64,000 nt of DNA, from IMG/VR virus record IMGVR_UViG_3300045988_003495. One strand, written 5' to 3'. This DNA comes from a virus (Duplodnaviria > Heunggongvirae > Uroviricota > Caudoviricetes). Below the pieces are notes generated by a model. It saw only the letters and a list, made by a program, of their open reading frames with translations. It did no database searches and had not been told where the DNA came from. How positions within the stretch are numbered: position 1 is the first letter of the stretch; each line of letters opens with the position of its first letter. Of this stretch, positions 5,492 through 41,255 are shown in pieces. The translations under genes were made by a program, and so were the position numbers.

Positions 5492-5803
5492 ATGGAAAAG
5501 ATTTATAACACCCGTAAAATTCAGATTTCTATTCTGTGTCAGTTTATGGCTGATAAACACAATTCACATTATTGTGGCACAGGTTTCCTTACTCTTGGTG
5601 GCGGTTACATTAGCTTCAAAGAGGCTGTAAAGATGTACAATGAGCACCCTGAAGATGATAAAGAGCTTAAGCAGCTTAAACTTTCTTATGATAAGAAACG
5701 TAAGAAAATAATCTGCTTGAACAACCTTATCAAGCCAACTGAAAAGGTCTATGATGCAATTGGTGAAGAAGGTTTCTTCAAAGTATTGAAATTAGTTCAG
5801 TAA
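5492..5803 (+). CDS. hypothetical protein
   Basis: 103 aa ORF; hairpin plus T-run follows at 5818-5845. Confidence 0.4.
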   Translation: MEKIYNTRKIQISILCQFMADKHNSHYCGTGFLTLGGGYISFKEAVKMYNEHPEDDKELKQLKLSYDKKRKKIICLNNLIKPTEKVYDAIGEEGFFKVLKLVQ

Positions 5804-5817
5804 GAGTCTATGATTAG

Positions 5818-5845
5818 GGAACTGTAAAGGTTCCCTTTTTATTTT
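5818..5845 (+). terminator. intrinsic terminator
   Basis: gggaac-tgtaaag-gttccc stem-loop followed by tttttatttt. Confidence 0.55.
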
Positions 5846-5854
5846 GGAGATAAA

Positions 5855-6370
5855 ATGTATCTGTCAAACCTGAAACGTTCGGCTGCAATGTCAGTGTTAA
5901 GACTCAGCTTTGAGGAACGTCAAGAGTTCATTGACTCCCACCAATACGACCCCTCAAACTCCAATCACATGATTCTCTGGAATCGTGAGAGTACTCGTGA
6001 AAGAGTATTATTCCGATATTACCCATACTACACCATAGACAACCTGTATGAATGTTTTGTTGTGAAGAACACCATTACAGTACTTAATAAACTTTGCAGA
6101 TACACAGGTAGTCAATCCTTCACATTAGGTCACCACAAGCCTGTTACAAAAGGTGGTGAACATCACTGCGCAAACTGGTTTATCCAAACTAAAGCTGATA
6201 ACCAGAAGCAAGAAGATAGCCTTCTAAGCACTCCTAAGATGACCTATGAAGAGCAAGAGAGATATATCAAAAATAATATGCCAGATGTGCTTGACAACAA
6301 CTATACAGATTTGGCAATATCTCTCCTGTTGAAGTTTGAGACAGTTTATAGGGCAACTTACAATGGCTAA
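5855..6370 (+). CDS. hypothetical protein with possible HNH-like motif
   Basis: 171 aa; GHHKPVTKGGEHHCANW resembles an HNH core but is not conclusive by eye. Confidence 0.35.
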   Translation: MYLSNLKRSAAMSVLRLSFEERQEFIDSHQYDPSNSNHMILWNRESTRERVLFRYYPYYTIDNLYECFVVKNTITVLNKLCRYTGSQSFTLGHHKPVTKGGEHHCANWFIQTKADNQKQEDSLLSTPKMTYEEQERYIKNNMPDVLDNNYTDLAISLLLKFETVYRATYNG

Positions 6371-6641
6371 AGAGAAGTGGGAGATTCTACCATTAGTGAG
6401 TGAAGGTGGTAACGGCTGTGAGATGTACATGATACGTGGTCATGTCCCAGAACCAATTGCACTTGAGATGGTAAACAATTTTACAGATGGCTCTTACAAA
6501 GATTTAGGAGAGCCAACTATAAAGCATCAATGGGTCAAACCTGTACCAGACAGCACAGGTAACTGTAGTGTACTTTATCACGTTGTAGACCCTGCAAAAT
6601 GCAAATCTGCAATGGCAGTAACAAACATAACCTTTGATTGA
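6363..6641 (+). CDS. hypothetical protein
   Basis: ORF track 6336-6641; ATG at 6363 (MAKEKWEIL) avoids most overlap with the upstream gene. Confidence 0.3.
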   Translation: MAKEKWEILPLVSEGGNGCEMYMIRGHVPEPIALEMVNNFTDGSYKDLGEPTIKHQWVKPVPDSTGNCSVLYHVVDPAKCKSAMAVTNITFD

Positions 6642-6656
6642 TAGAGAGAGAAAACT

Positions 6657-7538
6657 ATGAAAACATCTATCCGTGTTACAGTTCATTCACCAACTAAAGG
6701 GACTCATGAAGAAGAGTTTAACATCATCCAATTTCCTTCTGGTGAGATTGGTGGACACTTTTCGCCAGAGTTTGTTGATTTCACTGCTTATGCAGCATCA
6801 TCCATCAACAATGTGATTATGATTGTAAAAGGTTATGACAAGGACACATTGTTTGCTGTGGCACTTGCTAAAGAAGCAATTGATGATTTAATTCCTCATG
6901 ATTATGCTTTAAAGACTGTCATCTTTTACTACTTACCAAATGCACGATATGACCGTCACATGTTTAAAGGCGACGCAGCAGCTTTAAAGGTTTTTGCTAA
7001 ACAGGTAAATGCAATGGGATTTGGTGCAGTCTGTGCAGTTGACCCTCACAGTTACGTTCCAGATAACCTGTTTAACTGCTTCCAGAGTATTCCTCAAAAG
7101 GAGATTGCAGTCCACTATGCAAATGACCCACTGGTTGATTACTTAGTAGCCCCAGATGCAGGTGCTGCTAAGAAGGTTGCAGAGACCGCTAAAGAGGCGG
7201 ATAAACCATATATCACAATGTCTAAGGTGCGTAACCTTAAGACTGGTGAAATTACTGGTATGCGAATCCTTGATGATGTTGATTTGACAGATAAAACCGT
7301 CATGATTCTGGATGATATCTGTGATGGTGGTCGAACCTTCATAGAAGCAGCTAGACATCTTCGTGAAGCAGGTGCAAAACGTGTGGAACTCTATGTAACA
7401 CATGGTATCTTCTCTAAAGATGTTGAAAACCTTCTTGACAATGGCATTGACCACATCTACACTACAAACTCTTTAGGGGAAGCTAAAGACCGTGGCTTAA
7501 CACATTATGGTCAAGTTACTGTAGCAAATTTGGATTAG
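6657..7538 (+). CDS. prs: ribose-phosphate pyrophosphokinase (Prs) homologue; candidate ADP-ribose pyrophosphokinase
   Basis: 293 aa; phosphoribosyltransferase-type PRPP-binding loop (VMILDDICDGGRTF); RBS gagagagaaaactATG. Confidence 0.75.
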   Translation: MKTSIRVTVHSPTKGTHEEEFNIIQFPSGEIGGHFSPEFVDFTAYAASSINNVIMIVKGYDKDTLFAVALAKEAIDDLIPHDYALKTVIFYYLPNARYDRHMFKGDAAALKVFAKQVNAMGFGAVCAVDPHSYVPDNLFNCFQSIPQKEIAVHYANDPLVDYLVAPDAGAAKKVAETAKEADKPYITMSKVRNLKTGEITGMRILDDVDLTDKTVMILDDICDGGRTFIEAARHLREAGAKRVELYVTHGIFSKDVENLLDNGIDHIYTTNSLGEAKDRGLTHYGQVTVANLD

Positions 7539-7546
7539 GTATTAAA

Positions 7547-8038
7547 ATGGATAAGGGTTACTTCGAAAAATACCTAATATACGAACCGGAGACAGGTTTA
7601 CTAATTTGGAAAGTAACCCTTTGCAATACCGCTATTGCTGGTAATGTTGCTGGCACAAGGTCTAAGAAGGGTTATATCCAAGTCCAGATAAATAAGAAGA
7701 GGTACTATGCACATAATATTGCATGGATTATGTCTGGAGGTGAGATACCAAGTGGATATGAGATAGACCACATAGACCTTGATAAATCTAATAATAAGTT
7801 GGAGAATTTAAGACTTAGCACAAAGTCACAAAATCAGAGGAATAGGGGTATATACAAGAATAATAAAACTGGTGTGAAGGGTGTAAGTTTTTGTAAACAA
7901 ACAGGTCTTTACAAAGCAAGAGTCATGCTTTACCATAAAGAATACTTTTGTGGAAGATTTAAAACGGTAGAAGAAGCAAAAGAAGCTGTAATTAAAAAGC
8001 GAATAGAACTTCATGGTGAGTTTGCAAGACATAACTAA
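7547..8038 (+). CDS. HNH homing endonuclease with AP2-like DNA-binding domain
   Basis: 163 aa; HNH_3-type core (YYAHNIAWIMSGGEIPSGYEIDHIDLDKSNNKLENLR) followed by AP2-like segment (GVKGVSFCKQTGLYKARV...GRFKTVEEA). Confidence 0.6.
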   Translation: MDKGYFEKYLIYEPETGLLIWKVTLCNTAIAGNVAGTRSKKGYIQVQINKKRYYAHNIAWIMSGGEIPSGYEIDHIDLDKSNNKLENLRLSTKSQNQRNRGIYKNNKTGVKGVSFCKQTGLYKARVMLYHKEYFCGRFKTVEEAKEAVIKKRIELHGEFARHN

Positions 8039-8056
8039 GAGAGAGAGAGATAAAAT

Positions 8057-9838
8057 ATGAGTAAGTCACTTTACGCAGTACCAGCAGGTCTTAATGCAGA
8101 TGCTTACAAGGCATCACATATATATCAGTATCCAGATGCTACGCAATATCTTATGTTGAACCTGACACCACGTAGCGACAAATGGTTTAACAGTCCATTA
8201 GCAATTGATGGTGTAGTCGCTTTTGGTATTCAACGTTTCGTTAAAGATTACTTGATAGACCACTGGAACGCCACTTTCTTTGAACGTGATAAAAAAGAAG
8301 CCATTGATGAAATCTTAGAAGTCATGAATGGTGTTCTGGGTAAAGATGCTATCGGTCGAGAGCATTGGGAAGCACTTCACGACTTAGGTTATCTACCAGT
8401 TGAAGTATACGCTGTAGAAGAAGGCACAGTTGTCCCTATGCGTGTCCCAATGATTGTCTTCCAGAACACTGTTTCAGGTTTCCATTGGGTAGCAGGTTAT
8501 CTGGAAGATGCTTTCTCTGCTGAGATTTGGAAGGCTTGCACTATTGCAACTATTGCATTGCATTACAAACGCATCTGTAAGAAGTGGGCTGACCTTACTT
8601 GTGACAACGACTTGCATCTGCCCTATCAGTGCCATGACTTTGCTATGCGTGGTATGTCAGGCTTTACTGATGACGCATTTAATGCTGTAGGTCACTTAAC
8701 CAGCTTTAAAGGAACTGACAGCTTCCCTGCTGTATACACGGCTAAACGCATCTATGGGCAGTCTTACCCAATCTCTGATATTGGTAGTTCTGTACCAGCC
8801 ACTGAACACTCTGTAATGTGTGCAAACATTGCTTGGGAAGGTGGTAATGAATTGATTGAAGATGAAAGACGCTTTAAAGGTGAGTTACAAACCTTCCGTC
8901 GTTTTTTAACAGAAACTTACCCAACTGGTATTGCAAGTATTGTTTCAGATACTTATAACTTCTGGAGAACTGTGTCAGAAATCTTACCAGCACTCCGTAA
9001 AGAAATTATGGAACGTGATGGCAAACTGGTAATTCGCCCTGACTCTGGAGACCCTGTACATATTGTCACAGGTTATAAAGCAATCCACTTAGAATGTGCT
9101 AAGAAGGCTTATTATGAGCACCTTAGTAAGCTGGAAGCCAGCGACACAATGTTGAATGCTGTTCTGAATATGAAGCTTGAAAACATCAGCTATGGTATTG
9201 CTGGATGGCTACTGTCAGAAGGCTACGAAATGGTTGTTGACAGAGAAGACTTTGAAGTTGCTGATACAGTGATGTTGAAGAACGCTTATATGGTTGGTTC
9301 TGCAAACGTTGTAACACGCCCTGTAGCAGAGATTGATGGGGCTATTAAGACCCTGTATAACATCTTCGGAGGGACTATCAACTCCAAAGGCTTTAAGGTA
9401 CTGGATGAGCATATCGGGCTTATCTATGGCGACTCTATCACGCTGGAACGTGCAAACGAAATCCTGAAGCGTCTGTATGAAATGGGTTTTGCAAGCTCTA
9501 ACGTAGTGTTTGGTGTAGGCTCTTACACTTACCAGTACATGACTCGTGACACCTTTGCATTTGCTGTCAAAGCAACTCTTGCAAGCATTGGTGGTAAAGA
9601 GATTATGCTTGCAAAAGACCCTAAAACAGATAGTGGTGTTAAGAAATCTGCCTTTGGTGGTGTAGCACCTATGTGGGATGGTGATAAGCTGAAAGCTGTA
9701 GATGGCTATGGATTCCAGAGCTTTGCAGATGCACTTGAACATCCAGCTTGTGCTCTACGCTTAGTCTTTAGTGATTCTGAGCAGTATGGTTACACATCTC
9801 TTGGTGATATTCGAAATAATATTGACAAGCAGCTTTAA
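8057..9838 (+). CDS. nadV: nicotinamide phosphoribosyltransferase (NadV/NAMPT) homologue
   Basis: 593 aa; N-terminal region and central motifs look NAMPT-like (HDFAMRGMSGFTDD, GTDSFPA), read by eye without a search. Confidence 0.75.
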   Translation: MSKSLYAVPAGLNADAYKASHIYQYPDATQYLMLNLTPRSDKWFNSPLAIDGVVAFGIQRFVKDYLIDHWNATFFERDKKEAIDEILEVMNGVLGKDAIGREHWEALHDLGYLPVEVYAVEEGTVVPMRVPMIVFQNTVSGFHWVAGYLEDAFSAEIWKACTIATIALHYKRICKKWADLTCDNDLHLPYQCHDFAMRGMSGFTDDAFNAVGHLTSFKGTDSFPAVYTAKRIYGQSYPISDIGSSVPATEHSVMCANIAWEGGNELIEDERRFKGELQTFRRFLTETYPTGIASIVSDTYNFWRTVSEILPALRKEIMERDGKLVIRPDSGDPVHIVTGYKAIHLECAKKAYYEHLSKLEASDTMLNAVLNMKLENISYGIAGWLLSEGYEMVVDREDFEVADTVMLKNAYMVGSANVVTRPVAEIDGAIKTLYNIFGGTINSKGFKVLDEHIGLIYGDSITLERANEILKRLYEMGFASSNVVFGVGSYTYQYMTRDTFAFAVKATLASIGGKEIMLAKDPKTDSGVKKSAFGGVAPMWDGDKLKAVDGYGFQSFADALEHPACALRLVFSDSEQYGYTSLGDIRNNIDKQL

Positions 9839-33815: not shown

Positions 33816-34187
33816 ATGAAAAACAGAACAAACAAAGGCCAGTTTAAAAAAGGCCAGTCTGGAAACCCATCTGGAAGACCAAAAGGCTCTCGTAACAAAA
33901 GCTCACTCGTAAAAGCTCAACTGACCATTGATAATTCTGCTGAGTTCGCTGCAAAGCTGTTTGAGGCGATTGTTACAAGGGACGCGGCTAAGCTTGCAGA
34001 GTTCGGTTTAAACACAGATGACGTAACCATCAAGAGCATGATTGAGGTCGGTAAAACTATCTTTACTCACTCAGCAGGTGAGATGAAAGCACTTGCAGCA
34101 GACACTAAGAAGACTCCTGATAATGGTGGTCAACAACAGACAGATAACAAACCAACGTTCTCTGCTGTAGCGACTCTCAAAAAATAA
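33816..34187 (+). CDS. hypothetical protein with N-terminal GNPSGRPKG motif
   Basis: 123 aa; basic N-terminus KKGQSGNPSGRPKGSRNK. Confidence 0.45.
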   Translation: MKNRTNKGQFKKGQSGNPSGRPKGSRNKSSLVKAQLTIDNSAEFAAKLFEAIVTRDAAKLAEFGLNTDDVTIKSMIEVGKTIFTHSAGEMKALAADTKKTPDNGGQQQTDNKPTFSAVATLKK

Positions 34188-34199
34188 TTTTAAAAGATG

Positions 34200-34229
34200 T
34201 TGACAGACTCTACAGAGTTGCTCTAAAGT
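34200..34229 (+). promoter_or_regulatory. sigma70-like promoter embedded in a dyad (operator-like)
   Basis: TTGACA (34200-34205), 18-nt spacer, TAAAGT; inverted repeat TGACAGACT...AGTCTGTCA spans the promoter. Confidence 0.45.
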
Positions 34230-34268: not shown

Positions 34269-35684
34269 ATGAGCGAATTATTTAAACATGCGCACCTTCA
34301 TGCAGGTCGAACTGAAAATGGTGCTGTAAACCATACTTCATCAATGTCTGCTCTTGTAGACTTTTACAAAGCTGCTGGTTCAAGCCGTAGCAATGTAGAA
34401 ATCTTACCAGACCTGTTCTACAAAGCTTTGCGTGAGGATGTTGATGTTGCAGTCCGTATTTTACTGCATATGCGAGATGTACGAGAAGGTATGGGTGAGC
34501 GTAAAGCCTTCAGAACTGTTTTGCTTCAAGCAATTGAAGACAAAGTTTTAGAGCCTACACAGGTTCTTCGCATTATGGATAAGATTGCAGAGCTTGGTCG
34601 CTTTGATGACTTCAAAATCTTTGTAGGTACTCGTTTCGAGACAGATGCCTTCAAACATTTAGAAGCAGCATTACTAGACCCTGCAACAGCAGGTTTAGCA
34701 GCTAAGTGGTTACCACGAGTCAAACCACGTCATAAGCAGTTTGTAAAACGTTTCTGCAAGTTTGCCAACTTGAGTGAGAAAGAGTACCGCACACTGTTGT
34801 CTGCACTATCTGATACAGTTGAGCAAAAAATCTCTGCTAATGAGTTTGGTAAGATTGACTACAGCAAGATTCCTTCACTTGCTGCTGCACGTTACCAAAA
34901 ACTGTTTAACCGTAAGGATGGAGAACGCTACAAAGCTTACATTGAGTCTTTATCAAAGGGCGAGGCTAAGATTAATGCTGGTGCTGTTTACCCATACGAT
35001 GTGATTAAATCTGTCAAGCATGGTAATGCAGATGTTGCCAATGAGCAGTGGAAAGCACTACCAAACTGGATGGCAGAAGGTGAGAACATCTTGTGTATGA
35101 CTGATGTTTCAGGCTCAATGTCTTGGGTGAATCTTGGTTCAATCACTGCCCTTGATATTGGTGTATCACTTGCCTTGTATGTAGCAGAACGTAATACAGG
35201 TTGCTTTAAGGATGAGTTAATGGTTTATTCAACAAACCCTTACTTCATCGAACTGAGTGGTGATTTACGAAACCGCCATCGTCAGGTGATGCGACATGTT
35301 GAATATGGCTCAACTAACCTACAAGCAGCTTTTGACCGCATTCTTGAGGTAGGTAAGAGAAACAACTTGACTCAGAAAGATATGCCAAGTAAGCTTATCA
35401 TCTTCTCCGATATGGAGTTCAATCAGGTTGATGGAGCTAACGGTCGTACAAACTTTGAAGCAATTCAGAGTAAGTACAAAAAAGCTGGATACGAGATGCC
35501 ACAACTGGTATTCTGGTACTTAGCAAACCGTAATGGTACTTGCGAAGTGTCTGTTAAGGATAACGGTGTAGCGATGGTATCTGGTTTCTCTCCAGCCACT
35601 TTAAAAGCTCTGATTGGTGGTGAGAAGTTTGACCCAATCAGCGTAATGCTCAAAGCAGTAATGATTGACCGTTATATCTGGTAA
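34269..35684 (+). CDS. vWA-domain protein with alpha-helical N-terminal domain (TROVE/Ro60-like architecture?)
   Basis: 471 aa; MIDAS-like motif CMTDVSGSMSW then IIFSDMEF in the C-terminal half; helical N-terminal half of about 270 aa. Confidence 0.55.
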   Translation: MSELFKHAHLHAGRTENGAVNHTSSMSALVDFYKAAGSSRSNVEILPDLFYKALREDVDVAVRILLHMRDVREGMGERKAFRTVLLQAIEDKVLEPTQVLRIMDKIAELGRFDDFKIFVGTRFETDAFKHLEAALLDPATAGLAAKWLPRVKPRHKQFVKRFCKFANLSEKEYRTLLSALSDTVEQKISANEFGKIDYSKIPSLAAARYQKLFNRKDGERYKAYIESLSKGEAKINAGAVYPYDVIKSVKHGNADVANEQWKALPNWMAEGENILCMTDVSGSMSWVNLGSITALDIGVSLALYVAERNTGCFKDELMVYSTNPYFIELSGDLRNRHRQVMRHVEYGSTNLQAAFDRILEVGKRNNLTQKDMPSKLIIFSDMEFNQVDGANGRTNFEAIQSKYKKAGYEMPQLVFWYLANRNGTCEVSVKDNGVAMVSGFSPATLKALIGGEKFDPISVMLKAVMIDRYIW

Positions 35685-35702: not shown

Positions 35703-35731
35703 TTGACAATGTGTTTGATACCCTTTAATAT
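35703..35731 (+). promoter_or_regulatory. sigma70-like promoter with flanking dyad
   Basis: TTGACA, 17-nt spacer, TAATAT; GGGTAT...ATACCC inverted repeat flanks the -35 and spacer. Confidence 0.5.
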
Positions 35732-35848: not shown

Positions 35849-35924
35849 TCTCTGTTTAGCTCAGCTTGGTAGAGCGTTCCGTTTGGGGCGGTAAGGCCGG
35901 AGGTTCAATTCCTCCAACAGAGAC
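35849..35924 (+). tRNA. tRNA-Pro (anticodon TGG)
   Basis: Manual fold: acceptor tctctgt/acagaga, T-arm ggagg-ttcaatt-cctcc, anticodon loop tttgggg. Confidence 0.65.
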
Positions 35925-35933
35925 CAAATTAAT

Positions 35934-36008
35934 GTTCCAGTAGACAAAATGGTATAGTCACCACTCTTTCAAAGTGGATATTTGAGGGTTCAAATCCCTT
36001 CTGGAACG
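35934..36008 (+). tRNA. tRNA-Glu (anticodon TTC)
   Basis: Acceptor gttccag/ctggaac, T-loop ttcaaat, anticodon stem-loop ccact-ctttcaa-agtgg; CCA encoded. Confidence 0.65.
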
Positions 36009-36103
36009 CCAGTTTTGACAGAAGACCAATTACAGCAAACTTAATCTTATTCATCTGAAGGTAAATCGGACAAAGAAGAGATTTGGTCTGGTCATTAAGA
36101 ATT

Positions 36104-36176
36104 GCGGGTATAGAGAAAGGGCGTCTCACATGTCTCATTAGCATGGTATCGGCAGGTTCGACTCCTGCACCCGCCT
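36104..36176 (+). tRNA. tRNA with CAT anticodon (Met or Ile2)
   Basis: T-arm gcagg-ttcgact-cctgc; anticodon loop ctcatta; acceptor pairing imperfect at the 5' end. Confidence 0.45.
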
Positions 36177-36256
36177 CCAAATTTACAGAAGACCGTATGC
36201 AGCAACAAACTACTTTTTGCGGATAAAAGAAAAAACACGGTCTGGCAATGTATTAA

Positions 36257-36330
36257 GGTTAGGAAGCACATAAGGTATGTGCGGTCGCCTGTTAAGCGAA
36301 TGGCACAGGGTTCGAATCCCTGACTAACCG
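36257..36330 (+). tRNA. tRNA-Asn (anticodon GTT)
   Basis: Anticodon loop ctgttaa; T-arm caggg-ttcgaat-ccctg; CCA encoded. Confidence 0.65.
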
Positions 36331-36342
36331 CCAAATTTAAAT

Positions 36343-36427
36343 GTGTCGTTATCCCGTAGATGGTAGCGGTGGGGACTGTAAATCCCTTGTCATTGAGACT
36401 CGGTAGGTTCGACTCCTACACGGCACA
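36343..36427 (+). tRNA. tRNA-Tyr (anticodon GTA), long variable arm
   Basis: 85 nt; anticodon stem-loop gggga-ctgtaaa-tccct; T-arm gtagg-ttcgact-cctac. Confidence 0.65.
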
Positions 36428-36452
36428 CCAACACTTAGCGAGATACTTAGTT

Positions 36453-36854
36453 ATGAGAGATGAAGTATACAAATCACAACTTGGTATGAGTTTGGGAACT
36501 GCACAAAACAGACTAGTAAAAGATTTGCTATTCGATTTTATATGTAAGACAAATCAAAATAGATGTTTTCAGTGCGGAAAAGAAATGACTAGGGATGATT
36601 TCTCTATCGAGCATAAGACTCCGTGGAGACACAAAGATAATGCAAAAGAACTTTTCTTTTCACTAGATAACATTTCTTATAGCCACCTGCGTTGCAACAT
36701 GAAAGCAGCCAGACCAGCACAGATTTATGATAGAAAGCCTAAGCCAATTAAACACGGCACTGCACACAGCTACTCTAAAGGTTGCAGATGTGATGAGTGT
36801 AGGCTGGCTAAGAATGCTGAGGGTAGGAAGCACTATAACCCCAGAAAGGCGTAG
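36453..36854 (+). CDS. HNH homing endonuclease inside the tRNA cluster
   Basis: CFQCGKEM...FSIEHKTPW...SHLRCNMKAA...CRCDEC; ORF track start 36360 overlaps tRNA-Tyr, in-frame ATG at 36453 is the likelier start. Confidence 0.6.
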   Translation: MRDEVYKSQLGMSLGTAQNRLVKDLLFDFICKTNQNRCFQCGKEMTRDDFSIEHKTPWRHKDNAKELFFSLDNISYSHLRCNMKAARPAQIYDRKPKPIKHGTAHSYSKGCRCDECRLAKNAEGRKHYNPRKA

Positions 36855-36886
36855 GAAGAAGTATTTAAGAAATGGCACATAGTTTT

Positions 36887-36959
36887 GGGGTATTAGTTTA
36901 GACGGTGAAAATACGGGATTATCTCTCCTGAGCCGCGAGTTCGATTCTCACATACCTCG
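36887..36959 (+). tRNA. tRNA with atypical anticodon loop (ttatctc, apparent anticodon ATC; Asp-like?)
   Basis: Good acceptor (ggggtat/atacctc), D-arm and T-arm (gcgag-ttcgatt-ctcac), but A34 and T37 are unusual; Asp is otherwise absent from the cluster. Confidence 0.4.
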
Positions 36960-37110
36960 CCAATTTTGAGAGGGCTATTTAGCCCCTCCCTTAAAGAGTT
37001 CTTACGAGTATCCTTTAAAGGAGCAGAAGACCAAATACAGCAAGTTACTTAAAATTTCAAGCCAATTCAATTTTGAAAAATTTAAAACTTGGTCTGGCTC
37101 AACAAATTTA

Positions 37111-37242
37111 CAGAAGACCGTTTACAGCAAAACTTAAACAATCTATTTCTCGGTAAAGAAAAGGCGAAGGTTCGATTCCTTCACTCGGCAGATGTCGAGT
37201 TGGTGTAATGGTAGCACTTAAGATGATAAACAACGGTCTGGT
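37111..37242 (+). ncRNA. circularly permuted tRNA-like module enclosed by an AGACCGTT/AACGGTCT helix (candidate Y-RNA-like RNA)
   Basis: Order along the strand: T-arm gaagg-ttcgatt-ccttc (37166-37182), acceptor-like hairpin actcggc-agat-gtcgagt (37183-37200), tg, D-arm-like gtgtaatggtagcac (37203-37217); 8-bp closing helix 37115-37122 with 37232-37239. Confidence 0.35.
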
Positions 37243-37392
37243 AATTATCTTTGCAGTAGCTTATGTGGCTAATTATGTCGTCCCATGAGTGCCGATGAAT
37301 TTCCTTAGCATGATTCTAGATTAGCTTAGTAGGAAATGACTCTACAGACCCTTTAGCAAGGTCTGCGTAGGTTACTGCAAAGGCAATTTAAT

Positions 37393-37465
37393 GGAAGTGT
37401 AGCAGAATGGTGATGCGGCAGACTTTTAATCTGACAGGCGATGGGTTCGAATCCCTCCACTTCTA
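37393..37465 (+). tRNA. tRNA-Lys (anticodon TTT)
   Basis: Acceptor ggaagtg/cacttct, anticodon loop cttttaa, T-loop ttcgaat (short T-stem), CCA encoded. Confidence 0.6.
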
Positions 37466-37472
37466 CCAAAAT

Positions 37473-37546
37473 GGTTCAGTCGCAGATAAGGTAATGCAGG
37501 GGTCTCATAAGCCCTATGAATGTGGGTTCGATTCCCATCTGAACCT
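37473..37546 (+). tRNA. tRNA with CAT anticodon (Met or Ile2)
   Basis: Acceptor ggttcag/ctgaacc, anticodon loop ctcataa, T-arm gtggg-ttcgatt-cccat, CCA encoded. Confidence 0.6.
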
Positions 37547-37551
37547 CCAAT

Positions 37552-37623
37552 TGTGGGTTAGCATAAATGGTAATGCAAACGGCTGATAACCGTTAGAAGA
37601 GGGTTCGATACCCTCACCTACAA
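37552..37623 (+). tRNA. tRNA-Ile (anticodon GAT)
   Basis: D-arm gcat-aaatggta-atgc, anticodon stem-loop aacgg-ctgataa-ccgtt, T-arm gaggg-ttcgata-ccctc, CCA encoded. Confidence 0.7.
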
Positions 37624-37641
37624 CCAATTTCAATAAAGTTG

Positions 37642-37670
37642 TTGACATTGATACGTGACTACTTTATAGT
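37642..37670 (+). promoter_or_regulatory. sigma70-like internal promoter in the tRNA cluster
   Basis: TTGACA, 17-nt spacer, TATAGT. Confidence 0.5.
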
Positions 37671-37874
37671 AACCTTAGTTTTCGTTGCGTAGCGTCTATT
37701 TTGCAAATTTAAAATAAATGCAAACGACAATGTTTTTCTGGCAGTAGCTTGATAGGCTAAACACCAGTGAGGTCTTCCAATCCCTCATCAAAGAATTTGG
37801 CGTACTAGCCCACGGTATGATTAATAAGGTGGGCATCTTTAAGGGCTTTCTAAGAGAGTCTTTAAAGATAATTA

Positions 37875-37953
37875 CGGGGCGTATCTCAGCTGTCTTCTAA
37901 ACAGCCGTTAACCGAGTAAGTGGAGTATGCGGGTTCGAGTCCTGCCGCCTCGA
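37875..37953 (+). tRNA. tRNA-like gene, internal arms atypical (possible anticodon TCT, Arg)
   Basis: Clear acceptor (cggggcg/cgcctcg) and T-arm (gcggg-ttcgagt-cctgc) with CCA; gctgt-cttctaa-acagc hairpin would give TCT but leaves no room for a normal D-arm. Confidence 0.35.
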
Positions 37954-38099
37954 CCAATTTAGTTAGCAGATTACTTAGACGACCTAAGCGGGTCTTCCTG
38001 TAGGGAGGTGGTCTGTATCTCATGTTTTCCAGAACATGTAAATAATCTGAGAAGGGGCTTTACAGTGTTGCGAAAATACGGTAAGCTTCGAATTATAGT

Positions 38100-38179
38100 G
38101 TGGGACGATGTTAAGACTCTAAGGCATGAGCAACGGCCTCCAAAACCGTTTCAAAGGGGTTCAACTCCTCCGTCCCATG
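38100..38179 (+). tRNA. tRNA-like gene, possible Trp (anticodon CCA), 80 nt
   Basis: Acceptor gtgggac/gtcccat, T-loop ttcaact, anticodon loop candidate ctccaaa; D-arm region longer than standard. Confidence 0.4.
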
Positions 38180-38195
38180 CCAAAGTCTTATTAGG

Positions 38196-38283
38196 GGTAG
38201 GTAGCGGCTAATGGCAGCCAAACAGTCTTGAAAACTGTTGCCACTGTAGAGATACGGTGAGGGTTCGACTCCTTTACTTACCG
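38196..38283 (+). tRNA. tRNA-Ser (anticodon TGA), long variable arm
   Basis: 88 nt; anticodon stem-loop acagt-cttgaaa-actgt; variable arm about 20 nt; T-loop ttcgact. Confidence 0.65.
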
Positions 38284-38541
38284 CCTAATAAGATTTAAAG
38301 CCAAGCTTCATTCGGATGTTGCTTTGGTATCCCTCGTGTATTGTCGTACACGCACAGTAAAGCACCTAGTAGGTGTCACGGAGAAGAGATAATATCAAGC
38401 TCTCCAAAGGTTCTAGTCACCGGATTAAACAAGACTATGCAAAGACCAAATTAGGTCTTTTTAGAGGGCTTCTAAGGTTATTACAGCTTGTTGTGGAACC
38501 TTGTTGCTTAGGTTCTTAGAAGTTCTCTAAAAAGATTTAAT

Positions 38542-38616
38542 GGGAGATTGACGGTAATTGGTAAACCTACCATCCTTAGAAGTTGGTGTTTGAGGGTTCG
38601 AATCCCTTGTCTCCTA
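38542..38616 (+). tRNA. tRNA with anticodon TAG (Leu-type anticodon on a short-variable-arm scaffold)
   Basis: Acceptor gggagat/gtctcct, anticodon loop cttagaa, T-arm gaggg-ttcgaat-ccctt, A73, CCA encoded; 75 nt. Confidence 0.45.
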
Positions 38617-38626
38617 CCAAATTAAT

Positions 38627-38699
38627 GCAGGTGTAGCAAAATGGTTATGCGGCTGACTCTTAATCAGTAAGACGATGGGTTCAATTCCCTCCACCTGTA
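38627..38699 (+). tRNA. tRNA-Lys (anticodon CTT)
   Basis: Anticodon stem-loop gctga-ctcttaa-tcagt; T-loop ttcaatt; CCA encoded. Confidence 0.65.
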
Positions 38700-38708
38700 C
38701 CAAACATT

Positions 38709-38781
38709 GGGGATGTAGTTTACATGGTTAAAACATAAGTTTTGCAAACTTAAGTACAGGGTTCAATTCCCTGCTTCTCCA
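38709..38781 (+). tRNA. tRNA-Ala (anticodon TGC)
   Basis: Anticodon stem-loop taagt-tttgcaa-actta; T-arm caggg-ttcaatt-ccctg; CCA encoded. Confidence 0.65.
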
Positions 38782-38790
38782 CCAATTAGT

Positions 38791-38862
38791 GCATCCATAG
38801 TTTAAACGGGAAAATTACAGTCTTCCAAACTGAGGTTGAGGGTTCGATTCCCTCTGGATGCT
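38791..38862 (+). tRNA. tRNA-Gly (anticodon TCC)
   Basis: Acceptor gcatcca/tggatgc; anticodon loop cttccaa; T-arm gaggg-ttcgatt-ccctc; CCA encoded. Confidence 0.65.
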
Positions 38863-38872
38863 CCAAATTAAT

Positions 38873-38945
38873 GCTCCTATCGTATAATTGGCTATTACGG
38901 TTGCCTTGTAAGCAACTTATCAGGGTTCGAATCCTTGTGGGAGCA
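38873..38945 (+). tRNA. tRNA-Thr (anticodon TGT)
   Basis: Anticodon stem-loop gttgc-cttgtaa-gcaac; T-arm caggg-ttcgaat-ccttg; CCA encoded. Confidence 0.7.
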
Positions 38946-39034
38946 CCAATTCAGAGGCCAAGTGAAAGACCGCTGGTGTCAACTGAAGACCGTAACAAAT
39001 TCCACGGAGTTGAGTTAGCGGCACAACTTCAGAC

Positions 39035-39106
39035 CTCTTTCATACTCGCTTAGTTTATATGGTAAAACACCACCCTTACAAGATGAAGAAAAAGGTTCAA
39101 GTCCTT
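39035..39106 (+). tRNA. tRNA, probable Val (anticodon TAC)
   Basis: Acceptor actcgct/agtgagt, T-arm aaagg-ttcaagt-ccttt, anticodon loop cttacaa with two mismatches in the anticodon stem. Confidence 0.45.
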
Positions 39107-39110
39107 TAGT

Positions 39111-39185
39111 GAGTACCATGTTCCAGTATCCCAATTGGCAGAGGATGCAAGCTCAAACCTTGTACTAGTGACGGTTCGAATCCGT
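39111..39185 (+). tRNA. tRNA with anticodon CAA (Leu-type anticodon, short variable arm)
   Basis: Acceptor gttccag/ttggaac, anticodon stem-loop gcaag-ctcaaac-cttgt, T-arm gacgg-ttcgaat-ccgtc, A73, CCA encoded. Confidence 0.5.
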
Positions 39186-39193
39186 CTTGGAAC

Positions 39194-39266
39194 ACCAATT
39201 TTGCAGGATTAGTTCAAATGGATAGAGCAACAGTCTACGAAGCTGTTAATAGGGGTTCGAATCCCT
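39194..39266 (+). tRNA. tRNA-Arg (anticodon ACG)
   Basis: Anticodon stem-loop acagt-ctacgaa-gctgt; T-arm agggg-ttcgaat-ccctt; CCA encoded. Confidence 0.7.
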
Positions 39267-39297
39267 TATCCTGCGCCAATTTAAAGAGGCTATTTAG

Positions 39298-39855
39298 ATG
39301 AGATATTTGAAGTATGCTTCATGGATTTTCCTAGCTTTACTAGAACCATTTGCAGCAACCCTAGCAGTCATCTTAGCACCTTTCGTAGTTCCATTCTACA
39401 GTGAGAAGAAAGGGCATCTACCTTTTGGATTCAGATGGATGGAGACCTATGACAACCCGATTGATGGTGATGAAGGCCACGTTAAAAGATGGGCTAAGAT
39501 TAGAAAGATTGGTAAGCTGGGTGTCTACATGCAGAGAGTCGGATGGCTCTGGAGAAACAAAGCTTATAACTTCTCTTACCATGTATTAGGAAGAGATGTA
39601 AAAGATGTTACTAAGTGGAAAGGTAATATCAACGTAAGTTCTGACCCTGAAGATAATCAGACTGGTTATCTCCTAATGTGGAATAGCAATGCTTGGGGAT
39701 TATTTGCTTTTATCCCATCAATTAAAGTCTTTGGTAAACAGTTTTACTGGAGAATTTATATTGGATGGAAACTAAAAAGCGTTGTCCCAGAAGAAAGAGC
39801 ATTCTCAAGGGAAAGAGTTATGTTGGCATTCTTTATTCATCCACTGAGAAAGTAA
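39298..39855 (+). CDS. hypothetical membrane protein encoded inside the tRNA cluster
   Basis: 185 aa; N-terminal hydrophobic region (WIFLALLEPFAATLAVILAPFVVPF); Trp-rich. Confidence 0.35.
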   Translation: MRYLKYASWIFLALLEPFAATLAVILAPFVVPFYSEKKGHLPFGFRWMETYDNPIDGDEGHVKRWAKIRKIGKLGVYMQRVGWLWRNKAYNFSYHVLGRDVKDVTKWKGNINVSSDPEDNQTGYLLMWNSNAWGLFAFIPSIKVFGKQFYWRIYIGWKLKSVVPEERAFSRERVMLAFFIHPLRK

Positions 39856-39863
39856 AGATTTAA

Positions 39864-39936
39864 AGGGGATTAGTTTACAAGGTTAAAACCTCGGTCTTTG
39901 AAATCGAAGAAGTTGGTTCAATTCCAACATCCCCCA
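39864..39936 (+). tRNA. tRNA-Gln (anticodon TTG)
   Basis: Anticodon stem-loop tcggt-ctttgaa-atcga; T-arm gttgg-ttcaatt-ccaac; A1-C72 mismatch; CCA encoded. Confidence 0.6.
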
Positions 39937-39941
39937 CCAAT

Positions 39942-40017
39942 GCTCCATTACTCCAATTGGCAGAGAGGCCAGACTTAAAATCTGTGTTATGTATCGGTTC
40001 GAATCCGATATGGAGTA
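39942..40017 (+). tRNA. tRNA with anticodon TAA (Leu-type anticodon, short variable arm)
   Basis: Acceptor gctccat/atggagt, anticodon stem-loop ccaga-cttaaaa-tctgt, T-arm atcgg-ttcgaat-ccgat, A73, CCA encoded. Confidence 0.5.
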
Positions 40018-40027
40018 CCAAATTTAG

Positions 40028-40100
40028 CGGTATAGCATAACTGGCAATGCAACAGTCTCTGAAGCTGTCCTATTAAGGTTCAAATCCTTATGCCGCTGCC
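40028..40100 (+). tRNA. tRNA-Gln (anticodon CTG)
   Basis: D-arm gcat-aactggca-atgc; anticodon stem-loop acagt-ctctgaa-gctgt; T-arm taagg-ttcaaat-cctta; CCA encoded. Confidence 0.6.
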
Positions 40101-40133
40101 ACTTCTAAGGGTTCTTACGAGAGTCCTTAAATG

Positions 40134-40206
40134 TGGCCTTATCATAAACGGTAATGACCTATGCTGTGAACATGGTCTATGCGGGTTCAAATCCCGTAGG
40201 TCACCC
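40134..40206 (+). tRNA. tRNA-His (anticodon GTG)
   Basis: Anticodon stem-loop ctatg-ctgtgaa-catgg; T-arm gcggg-ttcaaat-cccgt; discriminator C73; CCA encoded. Confidence 0.65.
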
Positions 40207-40215
40207 CAATTTATA

Positions 40216-40289
40216 GTCCAAGTAGCTTATATGGTTAAAGCGCGTGTCTGAAAAACATGAGAAGAGGGTTCAAATCCCACTGGACTACC
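40216..40289 (+). tRNA. tRNA-Phe (anticodon GAA)
   Basis: Acceptor tagtcca/tggacta; anticodon stem-loop cgtgt-ctgaaaa-acatg; T-loop ttcaaat. Confidence 0.55.
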
Positions 40290-40307
40290 AATTTCAAAGG
40301 TGCTTAA

Positions 40308-41041
40308 TGAAAGAGATGACAGAACAAGGTAAGGAGATTTTTAATCTCTTAAAAACCGGTAAAGGGTTTTCTAACCCACTTATTACTGGTGCAGCAGTTC
40401 TCGGTGGAACCGTAGCTGCCTCTACATCACTTGTAAACTCTATTAGTTCTGTAACAGACCCTACAATGAAGGATAAACTTGTTGCTGCTGGACTTACAAC
40501 AGTCCTTCTAAACAGCTTTACAACAAGCCTGACAAGCACTACAGCAACTACTAAGACCCTAACAGACTATGGTCAAAAATCTATTGATGAGTTTTCATCA
40601 CGTATGCAGGTAGCAAAGGGATACTCCAATGTTATGGGTGCAGCAGGAGAACAAGTTGGTTGTACACCATTCAGTGGTATTATGGGTGTTGCTACAGAGT
40701 ATGGTCAGCAAGCTATTGACACTATTAATAATGCACTAGATGGCGTTAACGATGTATTAAGTGACTTACAAGATGCTATTGATAAGGGTCTTGATACTGT
40801 TTCTGATTTAGCTAACCAAGCTGTTAGTAAGATTAATGAAGGTATCTCAAAGATTACAGCTTATGCAGATGAAGTTGTGCAGATGATTGAAGAAGAAGCT
40901 GCCCTTATTGCAGAGTACCTTAAAACGAATATCAATGGGTTCTTAGCAGGTATCTTACCAGACTGGTTTGATGATGCTTGTAAAACTGGTGTAATTGACA
41001 CTATTGCAACACCAGAAATGAAGAACGCATTACAGAAATAA
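40308..41041 (+). CDS. hypothetical Ser/Thr-rich protein
   Basis: ORF track start 40244 overlaps tRNA-Phe; ATG at 40308 (MKEMTEQGKE) is the likelier start. Confidence 0.4.
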
Positions 41042-41042
41042 T

Positions 41043-41132
41043 GGAAGATTAACCCTAAAAGGTAAGGGAGCAGTTTGCTAAACTGCCAGTAGCTGAGAAA
41101 TCGGTGTACCAGTTCAAGTCTGGTATCTTCCT
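41043..41132 (+). tRNA. tRNA-Ser (anticodon GCT), long variable arm
   Basis: 90 nt; anticodon stem-loop gcagt-ttgctaa-actgc; T-arm accag-ttcaagt-ctggt; CCA encoded. Confidence 0.7.
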
Positions 41133-41140
41133 CCAATTTT

Positions 41141-41213
41141 GAATCCGTGACAGAAATGGATATGTGCCTGTCTGCAAAACAGGTTTATAAGGGTTCAAGT
41201 CCCTTCGGATTCT
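41141..41213 (+). tRNA. tRNA-Cys (anticodon GCA)
   Basis: Anticodon stem-loop cctgt-ctgcaaa-acagg; T-arm aaggg-ttcaagt-ccctt; CCA encoded. Confidence 0.7.
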
Positions 41214-41255
41214 CCAAGTTATTTTACTCTCTCTCTCAATTAAAATAATAATAAT

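What the first reader, a model, noticed from the sequence alone, without database searches (positions are those of the whole stretch)
34269..35684. Helical-domain plus vWA protein at the head of the tRNA/ncRNA cluster: Ro60-like architecture?
This 471-aa protein has an alpha-helical N-terminal half and a C-terminal von Willebrand A domain with a MIDAS-like DxSxS motif (DVSGSMS). That is the same domain order as Ro60/Rsr RNA-binding proteins (TROVE then vWA). It lies directly upstream of a region dense in tRNAs, stem-loop RNAs and a permuted tRNA-like element, so an RNA-chaperone or RNA-quality-control role is an attractive but unproven hypothesis.
Basis: inference. Interest (0 to 1): 0.6.

Follow-up and report, generated by a model that had tools for sequence, protein, structure and literature searches.

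The report
Phage Ro60-like protein with partner RNAs
This Felix O1-type phage gene encodes a distant relative of the RNA-binding Ro60 ring protein, and unannotated small RNAs of one conserved design (one tRNA-like, three short) lie just downstream; the same gene-plus-RNA pairing recurs in very diverse phages, which points to a large overlooked branch of Ro60/Y-RNA particles.

Summary

What I could not find described is the RNA side. Four unannotated + strand elements sit between the tRNAs: E1 36019-36093, E2 36186-36247, E3 37024-37099, E4 37111-37243. All share a closing helix followed by UWCAGCAA and a 3' CUG. E4 carries a permuted tRNA-like module, like bacterial YrlA Y RNAs.

A covariance model finds such elements next to DUF2828 genes in 61 of 77 viral loci and 53 of 80 bacterial-assembly loci. 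Every hit is on the gene strand and the helix covaries strongly. In 80 control loci, six of the eight weak hits lay in the only locus with a DUF2828 gene.

The short form closely resembles Dictyostelium Class I RNAs. Binding between protein and RNA is inferred, not shown.

The parts
34200..34229 (+). sigma-70-like promoter match (TTGACA, 18 nt spacer, TAAAGT) 40 nt upstream of the Ro60-like gene
   Evidence: consensus match only; promoter-like sites are not enriched over shuffles in this region
34269..35684 (+). Ro60-like protein gene, 471 aa (Pfam DUF2828 + DUF7788; PHROG 850 'RNA-binding protein'); 97% identical to Bas63 gp130
34269..35078 (+). N-terminal alpha-helical repeat domain (aa 1-270), equivalent to the TROVE ring in the whole-chain superposition; invariant basic residues R40, R69, R72, R78, R111, K146, R208
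   Evidence: Modelled alone it gives no specific fold match.
35079..35684 (+). vWA domain with intact MIDAS: D279/S281/S283 (nt 35103-35117), T349 (nt 35313-35315), D381 (nt 35409-35411)
   Evidence: (weak Pfam vWA_Ro60 match in 6 of 36 members)
36019..36093 (+). E1, short Y-like RNA between tRNA-Glu and tRNA-Met: helix AGACCAA/UUGGUCU, then UUACAGCAA, 3' G; an outer 4-bp helix UGAC/GUCA extends it to 36016-36094
   Evidence: 24.6 bits; not in the model's training set
36186..36247 (+). E2, short Y-like RNA filling the gap between tRNA-Met (ends 36179) and tRNA-Asn (starts 36257)
   Evidence: 23.0 bits
37024..37099 (+). E3, short Y-like RNA; outer helix GAGC/GCUC covaries with those of E1 and E4
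   Evidence: 25.6 bits
37111..37243 (+). E4, long YrlA-like RNA: closing helix 37115-37122/37232-37239, motif UACAGCAA 37123-37130, variable-arm hairpin, T-arm 37166-37182, closed acceptor-like hairpin 37183-37200, D-arm 37203-37217
   Evidence: 80.1 bits; was in the training set; compensatory changes against Moogle
35850..41216 (+). tRNA cluster (25 ARAGORN tRNAs) in which E1-E4 are embedded; promoter-like sites at 35703 and 35794
33816..34187 (+). DUF5681 gene, first gene of the + strand block; always precedes the Ro60-like gene in Ounavirinae (context only, role unknown)

Best explanation
The gene encodes a highly diverged Ro60 homologue: a helical-repeat ring closed by a vWA/MIDAS domain. 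The four unannotated RNAs E1-E4 in the adjacent tRNA cluster are its cognate Y-like RNAs. Proposed mechanism, with each step marked. (1) E1-E4 are transcribed with the tRNAs and cut out by the tRNA-processing enzymes. This is inferred from E1 and E2 exactly filling gaps between tRNAs. (2) The protein binds the conserved module shared by all copies: a 7-8 bp terminal helix (A)G-R-W-U-N-N, the unpaired UWCAGCAA directly 3' of its 5' strand, and the 3' CUG. This is inferred by analogy with Ro60 binding the stem plus CGAA/GGUCCGA motif of Y RNAs. (3) The variable module (a tRNA-like domain in E4, A-rich loops in E1-E3) recruits or occludes host RNA-handling factors such as PNPase or tRNA-binding enzymes, so the particle re-routes host RNA decay and surveillance in the phage's favour. 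This is inferred from Deinococcus/Salmonella Rsr and Thermus phage phiLo Ro60. One outcome has been shown experimentally for the 97%-identical Bas63 gp130: it protects against the Ppl defence. The protein alone transfers that protection to T7, so the anti-Ppl activity does not strictly need the phage RNAs.

For: RNAs in the window: four exact CAGAAGACC...GGUCUGG elements occur only in the tRNA cluster and only on the + strand. Their termini are conserved while their interiors vary across Felixounavirus, Bas63 and Moogle. The E4 fold has the YrlA module order.

Generality: model R1 gives 249 hits in 77 DUF2828 loci, all on the gene strand. After removing tRNA overlaps, 61 of 77 loci carry an element, 44 of them within 500 nt of the gene. 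Of 38 loci with no tRNA at all, 24 have an element within 500 nt.

Covariation: the closing helix is 98% paired and all 7 pairs show double changes; covariation score 0.37 against 0.09 for shuffles and 0.04-0.07 for slid partners (seed alignment).

Control: 80 unrelated viral loci (723 kb) gave 8 hits. Six were in the only locus that happens to carry a DUF2828 gene, on its strand and just upstream.

Independent set: in 80 bacterial-assembly loci with 33-43% identical homologues, 114 hits were all on the gene strand; 53 loci carry an element and 49 have one within 600 nt.

Rfam YrlA gives sub-threshold hits on two long forms (E 1e-6 and 8e-6).

Function: Bas63 gp130 counters Ppl (PMC11482910). 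The Sf14 homologue is classed as a middle gene (PMC12482277).
Against: No binding, expression or processing data exist for E1-E4; the protein-RNA partnership rests on gene linkage and analogy. The N-terminal 230 residues show no sequence-profile similarity to TROVE. The N-terminal domain modelled alone has no significant Foldseek match. The canonical Ro-binding motif (GNCGAA/CGAA) is absent; a different motif sits in its place. gp130 alone rescues T7 on a Ppl host (PMC11482910 section 9), so at least that function does not need the phage RNAs. The closing helix and the T-arm were selection criteria for the seed alignment, so their pairing statistics are inflated. Alignments fitted to the model lean towards its structure. 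Same-strand orientation is partly expected in co-directional phage gene blocks. Tandem tRNAs give false positives up to about 38 bits and had to be filtered out.
Confidence: 0.68

Rival explanations
1. The protein acts on its own as a protein-protein inhibitor, for example with its MIDAS site clamping an acidic residue of the Ppl defence protein. The neighbouring RNAs are a functionally separate feature of phage tRNA/tmRNA islands, such as decoys, processing spacers or regulators.
For: gp130 alone, expressed from a plasmid or from the T7 genome, restores T7 plaquing on a Ppl host (PMC11482910). MIDAS is invariant, and vWA/MIDAS domains are typical protein-binding modules (one search hit list: midasin, Ku80, Rpn10, integrins). 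Many elements sit inside tRNA clusters.
Against: Elements lie within 500 nt of the gene in 24 of 38 loci that have no tRNA at all, and within 600 nt in 49 of 80 bacterial-assembly loci. None was found in 79 control loci without the gene. Linkage this tight across 33-99% protein identity is hard to explain without functional coupling. The whole-chain Ro60 fold implies RNA binding.
Confidence: 0.15
2. The RNA motif is a cis-regulatory leader or trailer of the DUF2828 mRNA (autoregulation, attenuation or mRNA stabilisation), not a separate trans-acting RNA.
For: In many loci a single short element lies 20-60 nt after the stop codon or 13-120 nt before the start codon.
Against: In the window the four copies are 0.3-1.6 kb downstream, behind separate promoter-like sites and between tRNAs. 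L023 has five copies 6 kb from the gene. Arrays of 2-4 copies with different helices are common. The position flips between upstream and downstream in different clades. The long forms carry a full tRNA-like module, as free-standing YrlA RNAs do. No U-tract terminators follow them.
Confidence: 0.08
3. The likeness to Ro60 is convergent or superficial: a generic vWA protein with an unrelated helical-repeat domain, for example a MoxR-type co-chaperone or an assembly factor.
For: Pfam TROVE is not detected. The N-terminal domain alone matches only generic helical repeats. Sequence identity to Ro60 is 11-16%.
Confidence: 0.07

Closest known systems
Bacterial Ro60 (Rsr) with YrlA/YrlB Y RNAs (Salmonella Typhimurium, Deinococcus radiodurans; Chen et al. 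2014, PMC4201824)
   Same: Ring-plus-vWA protein with MIDAS. One or more small RNA genes lie within a few kb on the same strand. There is a long RNA whose internal module is a permuted tRNA (variable arm, T-arm, closed acceptor stem, D-arm) closed by a 5'/3' stem, plus shorter RNAs that lack the tRNA module. A conserved purine-rich motif sits on the 5' side, next to the stem.
   Different: The protein belongs to a different Pfam family (DUF2828, not TROVE) and the N-terminal 230 aa are not alignable by profile. The RNA motif is UWCAGCAA instead of GNCGAA. The Rfam YrlA model scores at most 38 bits against a gathering score of 69 and does not hit E4 at all. No RtcB/RtcA neighbours were seen. 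Chen et al. searched only genomes annotated with TROVE, so this family was outside their survey.
Thermus phage phiLo Ro60 with Yrl1/Yrl2 (PMC12135203; PDB 9kop, 9l5y)
   Different: phiLo Ro60 is a recognisable TROVE protein and its Yrl RNAs carry the CGAA motif. Binding and PNPase effects are shown there and untested here.
Bas63 (Escherichia phage JohannRWettstein) gp130 (PhageMaP preprint, PMC11482910)
   Same: The same gene: 97% identical, same position after a DUF5681 gene and before tRNA-Pro. It is described as structurally Ro60-like and as a counter to the Ppl defence.
   Different: The preprint only speculates that some annotated tRNAs might be Y RNAs. The candidate partner RNAs found here are not annotated tRNAs. 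They lie in the gaps, two of them under small minus-strand 'hypothetical protein' calls bas63_0137/0138.
Dictyostelium Class I RNAs (Rfam RF01414; Kjellin et al. 2021, PMC7919456)
   Same: They work like the short form at the level of design. They are about 60 nt, with a 6-8 bp terminal stem of free sequence and compensatory changes. A conserved 5' G pairs with the C of a 3' CUG(U). An unpaired ..UUACAGCAA follows directly after the 5' stem strand, then an A/U-rich variable body. The genes are clustered. Class I is the best non-tRNA, non-YrlA Rfam match on the short forms (30.8 and 28.1 bits).
   Different: The scores are below the gathering score of 41.5. Class I RNAs are eukaryotic, have their own DUSE promoter and are reported as unique to Dictyostelia. 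Their known binder is the RRM protein Rnp1A/CIBP. I could not test whether dictyostelids encode a DUF2828 protein.
Generic vWA/MIDAS proteins (midasin MIDAS domain, Ku80 vWA, Rpn10, integrin I domains)
   Different: They align only to residues of about 270-450. None shares the N-terminal ring or any RNA linkage.

Membership tests
Ro60 / Rsr (TROVE + vWA RNA-binding ring) | Whole-chain fold: helical-repeat ring closed by a C-terminal vWA domain | tested here: met
Ro60 / Rsr (TROVE + vWA RNA-binding ring) | TROVE domain recognisable by sequence (Pfam PF05731) | tested here: not met
   No PF05731 hit for the protein or any of 36 homologues, even at E <= 10. HHalign to a 33-sequence TROVE profile aligns only residues 233-451, that is the last TROVE helix plus the vWA domain.
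Ro60 / Rsr (TROVE + vWA RNA-binding ring) | N-terminal domain on its own has the TROVE fold | tested here: inconclusive
Ro60 / Rsr (TROVE + vWA RNA-binding ring) | Intact MIDAS (DxSxS, T, D) in register with that of Ro60 | tested here: met
   D279, S281, S283, T349 and D381 are invariant. They align with Ro60 D376/S378/S380, T445 and D469.
Ro60 / Rsr (TROVE + vWA RNA-binding ring) | Y RNA gene(s) beside the protein gene on the same strand | tested here: met
   E1-E4 lie 0.3-1.6 kb downstream. 61 of 77 viral and 53 of 80 bacterial-assembly loci carry an element, all on the gene strand. The control was negative.
Ro60 / Rsr (TROVE + vWA RNA-binding ring) | Physical binding of Y RNA and of misfolded RNA 3' ends; tethering of PNPase | not testable with these tools
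   Needs RIP/EMSA/structure work.
YrlA Y RNA (Rfam RF02553) | 5'/3' closing stem around a permuted tRNA-like module in the order V, T-arm, closed acceptor stem, D-arm | tested here: met
   E4 fold. 19-sequence alignment with T-arm and D-arm covariation. The YrlA model aligns to positions 24-84 of L023 elements with the same bracket pattern.
YrlA Y RNA (Rfam RF02553) | Score at or above Rfam's gathering score (69 bits) | tested here: not met
   Best scores 38.0 and 34.8 bits on L023. No hit on E4 at E <= 10. None at gathering score in 7 loci.
YrlA Y RNA (Rfam RF02553) | GNCGAA(N)G motif near the 5' end (presumed Rsr site) | tested here: not met
   Replaced by U(A/U)CAGCAA in 148 non-redundant elements. 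Motif definition taken from PMC4201824.
Dictyostelium Class I RNA (Rfam RF01414) | Short terminal stem of free sequence with compensatory changes; conserved 5' G pairing with the C of the 3' CUGU | tested here: met
   Helix 98% paired, 7 of 7 pairs with double changes, G-C at pair 2 in 113 of 121 sequences. The 3' end is C-U|G-(A/U). Definition from PMC7919456.
Dictyostelium Class I RNA (Rfam RF01414) | Unpaired 11-nt motif CCUUACAGCAA directly after the 5' stem strand | tested here: met
   Positions 4-11 read U 0.89, A/U 0.57/0.37, C, A 0.85, G, C, A 0.97, A 0.91. C6, G8 and C9 were the search anchor. Positions 1-3 are not conserved.
Dictyostelium Class I RNA (Rfam RF01414) | Rfam gathering score (41.5 bits); dictyostelid genome with a DUSE promoter | tested here: not met
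   30.8 and 28.1 bits. The elements are in phage and bacterial DNA.
Pfam DUF2828 + DUF7788 (PIRSF 'UCP015417, vWA') | Both Pfam domains above their gathering scores | tested here: met
   DUF7788 148 bits (cut-off 27.1); DUF2828 104 bits (cut-off 29). All 36 aligned members match both.
Anti-Ppl counter-defence protein (Bas63 gp130) | Orthology to the tested protein | tested here: met
   458 of 471 residues identical, same synteny.
Anti-Ppl counter-defence protein (Bas63 gp130) | Protects the phage from Ppl | not testable with these tools
   Shown for Bas63 and T7 in PMC11482910; not tested for this phage.

The most novel reading that the evidence does not exclude
DUF2828-vWA proteins and the 'stem + UWCAGCAA + CUG' RNAs form a large, previously unrecognised sister branch of the Ro60/Y-RNA world (8752 protein clusters at 50% identity). 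The Class I RNAs of dictyostelid social amoebae, an abundant orphan RNA class known since 2004 and thought to be unique to that lineage, would be its eukaryotic members. This predicts that a dictyostelid (or amoeba-virus-derived) DUF2828-type Ro60-like protein is their missing partner. Pfam DUF2828 does occur in eukaryotes and in mimivirus-like sequences.
Probability: 0.3. Interest if true: 0.9.

Novelty: new variant of a known kind. Interest (0 to 1): 0.74.

Why it matters
Ro60/Y-RNA particles are a classic RNA-surveillance system, but surveys of prokaryotic and phage versions have followed the TROVE annotation only. If the DUF2828 family is a second, much larger phage-centred branch with its own Y-like RNAs, several things follow.

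- It gives thousands of 'RNA-binding protein / hypothetical' phage genes a concrete, testable mechanism.
- It names four unannotated RNAs in every Felix O1-type phage, including phages used for typing and therapy.
- It supplies the missing RNA component for a protein already shown to defeat the Ppl defence. That gives a handle on how Ppl is triggered or evaded.
- It ties the protein to phage tRNA/tmRNA islands.
- It offers the first candidate relatives, and a candidate protein partner, for Dictyostelium Class I RNAs.

Tried and rejected
1. Sequence searches of the PDB with the protein and with its family profile found nothing relevant. Only fold comparison and HHalign see Ro60.

3. A reverse test scanned viral contigs for AAAG(N7)TTNCAGCAA(N30-60)CTGA. 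It says nothing about how often the RNA occurs without the gene. The fetched loci were reused as a negative control.

4. T4 rnaC/rnaD (species 1 and 2 stable RNAs in the T4 tRNA cluster) were tested as possible members and rejected. The only hits there are tandem-tRNA artefacts.

5. The weak Rfam permuted-tmRNA hit at 37569-37752 was first considered as a misread YrlA-like RNA. It is a separate thing, a tmRNA-like tag template.

6. freshwater-1 RNA, found in one DUF2828 array, is a different motif.

7. The conserved neighbours (ClpP, DnaJ, tmRNA in one clade) include no RtcB or RNA ligase, so an Rtc-type RNA-repair operon is not supported.

8. Supplementary tables of Chen 2014 and the paper Avesson 2011 are not held.

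9. No eukaryotic sequence collection was available to check for a Dictyostelium DUF2828 gene.
Full report
**Observation**

The ORF at 34269-35684 (+) exists as described: ATG start, 471 aa. The window is a Felix O1-type myovirus. The 3-kb stretch around the gene is 96-97% identical to many Felixounavirus genomes, and the gene itself is present in 251 phage records across Ounavirinae. It is followed after 165 nt by 25 tRNA genes, all on the + strand. Pfam assigns DUF2828 (residues 172-264) and DUF7788 (275-455). PHROGs assigns phrog_850 'RNA-binding protein' at E 1e-183.

In an alignment of 36 homologues down to 43% identity, D279, S281, S283, T349 and D381 are invariant. So are many basic residues in the N-terminal half.

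**The protein**

An AlphaFold2 model built on that alignment is confident (pLDDT 87, pTM 0.87). It has about 17 helices followed by an alpha/beta domain.

- Foldseek against the PDB returns, as its 11 best hits, only Ro60 structures: Xenopus and human Ro60, Deinococcus Rsr and Thermus phage phiLo Ro60. All are aligned over the full length (E 3e-9 to 2e-7, TM 0.5-0.66). Generic vWA proteins start at E 1e-3.
- Plain sequence searches of the PDB see nothing.
- HHalign of the family profile against a 33-sequence TROVE+vWA profile gives 92.5% probability (E 5e-7) for residues 233-451 against Ro60 314-537. That covers the last TROVE helix (VYPYDV aligned with IHPFHIL) and the whole vWA domain, with the MIDAS residues in register (a 3-sequence profile gave 82.6%).
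- Six of 36 members weakly match Pfam 'vWA_Ro60'.

Against membership: Pfam TROVE is never detected and the first 230 residues do not align by profile. The N-terminal domain modelled alone finds only generic helical repeats (best E 0.19).

I therefore call the protein a highly diverged Ro60 homologue by architecture. It is not a member of the TROVE family as currently defined.

**What was already known**

RefSeq and PHROGs already label the gene 'RNA-binding protein'. A 2024 preprint (PMC11482910) studied Bas63, a Felixounavirus whose gp130 is 97% identical and syntenic to this ORF.

- It reports 'high structural similarity to Ro60'.
- It shows that deleting gene 130 sensitises the phage to the Ppl defence.
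- It shows that gp130 alone rescues T7 on a Ppl host.
- It speculates that some annotated tRNAs might be Y RNAs.

A canonical TROVE Ro60 from Thermus phage phiLo binds two adjacent Y-like RNAs and attenuates host PNPase (PMC12135203).

**The RNAs in the window**

Reading the gaps between the tRNAs revealed four + strand elements that share 5' CAGAAGACC(N3)U(A/G)CAGCAA and 3' (N)GGUCUGG:

| Element | Coordinates |
|---|---|
| E1 | 36019-36093 |
| E2 | 36186-36247 |
| E3 | 37024-37099 |
| E4 | 37111-37243 |

The 9-mer CAGAAGACC occurs exactly four times in 64 kb, all here and all on the + strand. Each element folds into a 7-8 bp helix (AGACCNN/NNGGUCU). This is flanked by an asymmetric internal loop and an outer 4-bp helix whose sequence covaries between copies: UGAC/GUCA, GAGC/GCUC, UUAC/GUAA.

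E1 and E2 exactly fill the spaces between tRNA-Glu, tRNA-Met and tRNA-Asn, so tRNA processing would release them.

E4 additionally encloses a long variable-arm hairpin, a canonical T-arm (GAAGGUUCGAUUCCUUC), a closed acceptor-like hairpin, UG, and a D-arm (GUGUAAUGGUAGCAC). This is the 5'-stem / V / T / acceptor / D / 3'-stem order that defines bacterial YrlA Y RNAs.

The four elements are present with conserved termini and variable interiors in other Felixounavirus genomes, in Bas63 and in the separate genus Mooglevirus. In Moogle the acceptor-like hairpin of E4 is replaced by a different but still paired sequence. They are unannotated, or overlaid by tiny minus-strand 'hypothetical' ORFs.

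**Generality**

I fetched 80 viral contigs encoding homologues at 39-99% identity. ARAGORN finds tRNAs or tmRNAs in about half of them, always on the gene's strand and often directly adjacent.

A scan for T-arms outside tRNAs uncovered the same permuted tRNA-like design beside the gene in many unrelated contigs. The helix sequence differs from contig to contig, but the unpaired U-N-C-(A/C)-GCAA after the 5' strand and a G after the 3' strand are always there.

Nineteen such elements align well. In that alignment U, C, G, C, A of the motif and the 3' G are invariant. The helix, T-arm and D-arm are 92.6% paired, against 62% in shuffles and 32-45% with slid partners. There are 94 double-change cells against 27. 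The helix and the T-arm were selection criteria; the D-arm was not.

A covariance model (R1) run on the window plus 76 loci (1.37 Mb, both strands) gives 249 hits at E <= 1, every one on the gene strand. Besides the long forms there are many 55-75-nt short forms made of just the helix, the motif and an A-rich loop.

After removing anything that overlaps a tRNA:

- 61 of 77 loci carry at least one element.
- 44 have one within 500 nt of the gene (16 upstream, 28 downstream).
- 30 have one within 150 nt.
- Among 38 loci with no tRNA at all, 24 have an element within 500 nt.

In the 150-sequence model alignment the closing helix is 98% paired and all seven pairs show double changes. For example, one pair reads CG 35, AU 34, GC 30, UA 10.

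**Controls and independent data**

Eighty unrelated viral loci (723 kb) had been fetched by a loose sequence pattern, so they even contain the motif by construction. They give only eight R1 hits at E <= 1. Six of these are in L160, the one control locus that happens to carry a DUF2828 gene, on its strand and immediately upstream. The other two are marginal.

Eighty loci from bacterial genome assemblies and MAGs (Clostridia, Chloroflexota, Bacteroidales and others; 33-43% protein identity) were not used to build the model. They give 114 hits at E <= 0.1, all on the gene strand. Of these loci, 53 carry an element and 49 have one within 600 nt, mostly in short arrays just upstream.

Tandem tRNAs are a known source of false positives, up to 38 bits in T4, and were filtered out. 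T4's rnaC and rnaD are not members.

**Comparison with known RNA families**

No Rfam family reaches its gathering score on these elements. Two give meaningful sub-threshold hits.

YrlA (RF02553) matches two long forms at 38.0 and 34.8 bits (E 1e-6 and 8e-6; gathering score 69). It aligns exactly to the anticodon-stem / V / T / acceptor / D core. The outer, presumably protein-binding part differs: canonical Y RNAs carry GNCGAA/CGAA next to the stem, and these carry UWCAGCAA.

Unexpectedly, the short forms are hit by the Dictyostelium Class I RNA model (RF01414) at 30.8 and 28.1 bits (gathering score 41.5).

- Rfam Class I consensus: GaUcuC-CUUACAGCAA-(A/U-rich)-GagAuC-UG
- Phage/bacterial consensus: (A)GgaUcg-uUaCAGCAA-(A-rich)-cgAucC(U)-G

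The published definition of Class I RNAs (PMC7919456) is:

- about 60 nt;
- a 6-bp terminal stem with compensatory changes;
- an invariant 5' G pairing with the C of a 3' CUGU;
- an unstructured 11-nt motif right after the 5' stem strand, with C6, C9, A10 and A11 invariant;
- clustered genes.

Apart from the first three motif positions, this fits the 148 non-redundant elements here. Those RNAs have no known mechanism and were reported as unique to Dictyostelia. Pfam DUF2828 occurs in plants and in mimivirus-like sequences. I could not test whether dictyostelids have the protein, so this is a lead, not a finding.

**Mechanism**

Shown:
- the fold resemblance and the intact MIDAS;
- conserved, covarying RNA elements tightly linked to the gene;
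- a counter-defence phenotype of the orthologue (from the literature).

Inferred:
- the protein binds the shared helix + UWCAGCAA + CUG module;
- the RNAs are excised by tRNA-processing enzymes;
- their variable modules engage host RNA-handling factors, as Y RNAs do for Ro60 and PNPase.

Because gp130 alone protects T7 from Ppl, the RNAs are not strictly needed for that activity. They may broaden or regulate the particle, or host RNAs may substitute.

The rivals are each less consistent with the linkage and multi-copy data. They are: a protein-only MIDAS inhibitor with unrelated RNAs, a cis-regulatory leader or trailer, and a convergent fold.

**Verdict**

The added value is a specific, widely conserved and apparently undescribed class of Y-like RNAs that accompanies this very large protein family (8752 clusters at 50% identity), together with the resemblance to Class I RNAs. 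I rate it a new variant of a known kind of system, with interest 0.74.

Noticed in passing
window 37720-37752 (+), promoter-like site 37642-37670: A tmRNA-like tag template: GCAAACGACAAUGUUUUUCUGGCAGUAGCUUGA = ANDNVFLAVA-stop (compare E. coli ANDENYALAA). It is identical in six other Felixounavirus loci. Rfam permuted-tmRNA scores 32 bits and tmRNA 15 bits, both below threshold. ARAGORN calls no tmRNA and no obvious tRNA-like domain belongs to it. Several other DUF2828 phage clades carry full tmRNA genes nearby (L023 8605-9054, L055 12619-13092).
   Followed up: partly
window 37875-37953 and 38102-38176 (+): Two odd tRNA-like genes that ARAGORN misses in the window. The first is a tRNA-Arg(UCU)-like sequence with almost no D-arm and a long variable arm (Rfam tRNA 31 bits; called tRNA-Arg in related genomes). 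The second is a tRNA-like element with an enlarged anticodon loop containing CCA (tRNA-Sec model, 23 bits).
   Followed up: no
window 36887-36962 (+): The tRNA-Asp has anticodon AUC (A34) and a U at position 37, instead of the usual GUC and a purine. This might relate to evasion of anticodon nucleases.
   Followed up: no
window 36360-36854 (+): The HNH homing-endonuclease ORF, as listed, starts inside tRNA-Tyr (36343-36430). The PHROG match begins at residue 35, so the true start is probably downstream of the tRNA.
   Followed up: no
window 33816-34187 (+): A DUF5681 protein gene (123 aa, basic N-terminus) always directly precedes the Ro60-like gene in Ounavirinae (Bas63 0129, Moogle 86). It is not among the conserved neighbours in other clades.
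   Followed up: partly
window 37253-37272 and 37741-37760 (+): The repeat GCAGUAGCUU(A/G)N(A/G)NGGCUAA occurs just after E4 and again at the end of the tmRNA-like tag frame. It is unexplained.
   Followed up: no
L228 1007-1068 (Micavibrio MAG contig): A freshwater-1 RNA (Rfam RF02979, 82.7 bits, above gathering score) sits in the same array of tRNAs and Y-like elements just upstream of a DUF2828 gene. It is an orphan sRNA motif that may belong to the same kind of island.
   Followed up: no
L036, L037, L044, L047, L052, L056 and related viral loci: In one large low-GC phage clade the DUF2828 gene lies within a few kb of ClpP-like and DnaJ-like genes and a tmRNA gene. This suggests a translation/proteostasis island.
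   Followed up: partly
L284 (Citrobacter phage Moogle NC_027293) 5582-9341: The record annotates its tRNA genes on the strand opposite to the neighbouring genes, and opposite to the orientation ARAGORN finds for the homologous tRNAs in the window. This is probably a strand error in the record.
   Followed up: no
L028 15696-15922: A group I intron (Rfam, 71.5 bits) lies 4 kb downstream of a DUF2828 gene in an unrelated viral contig.
   Followed up: no
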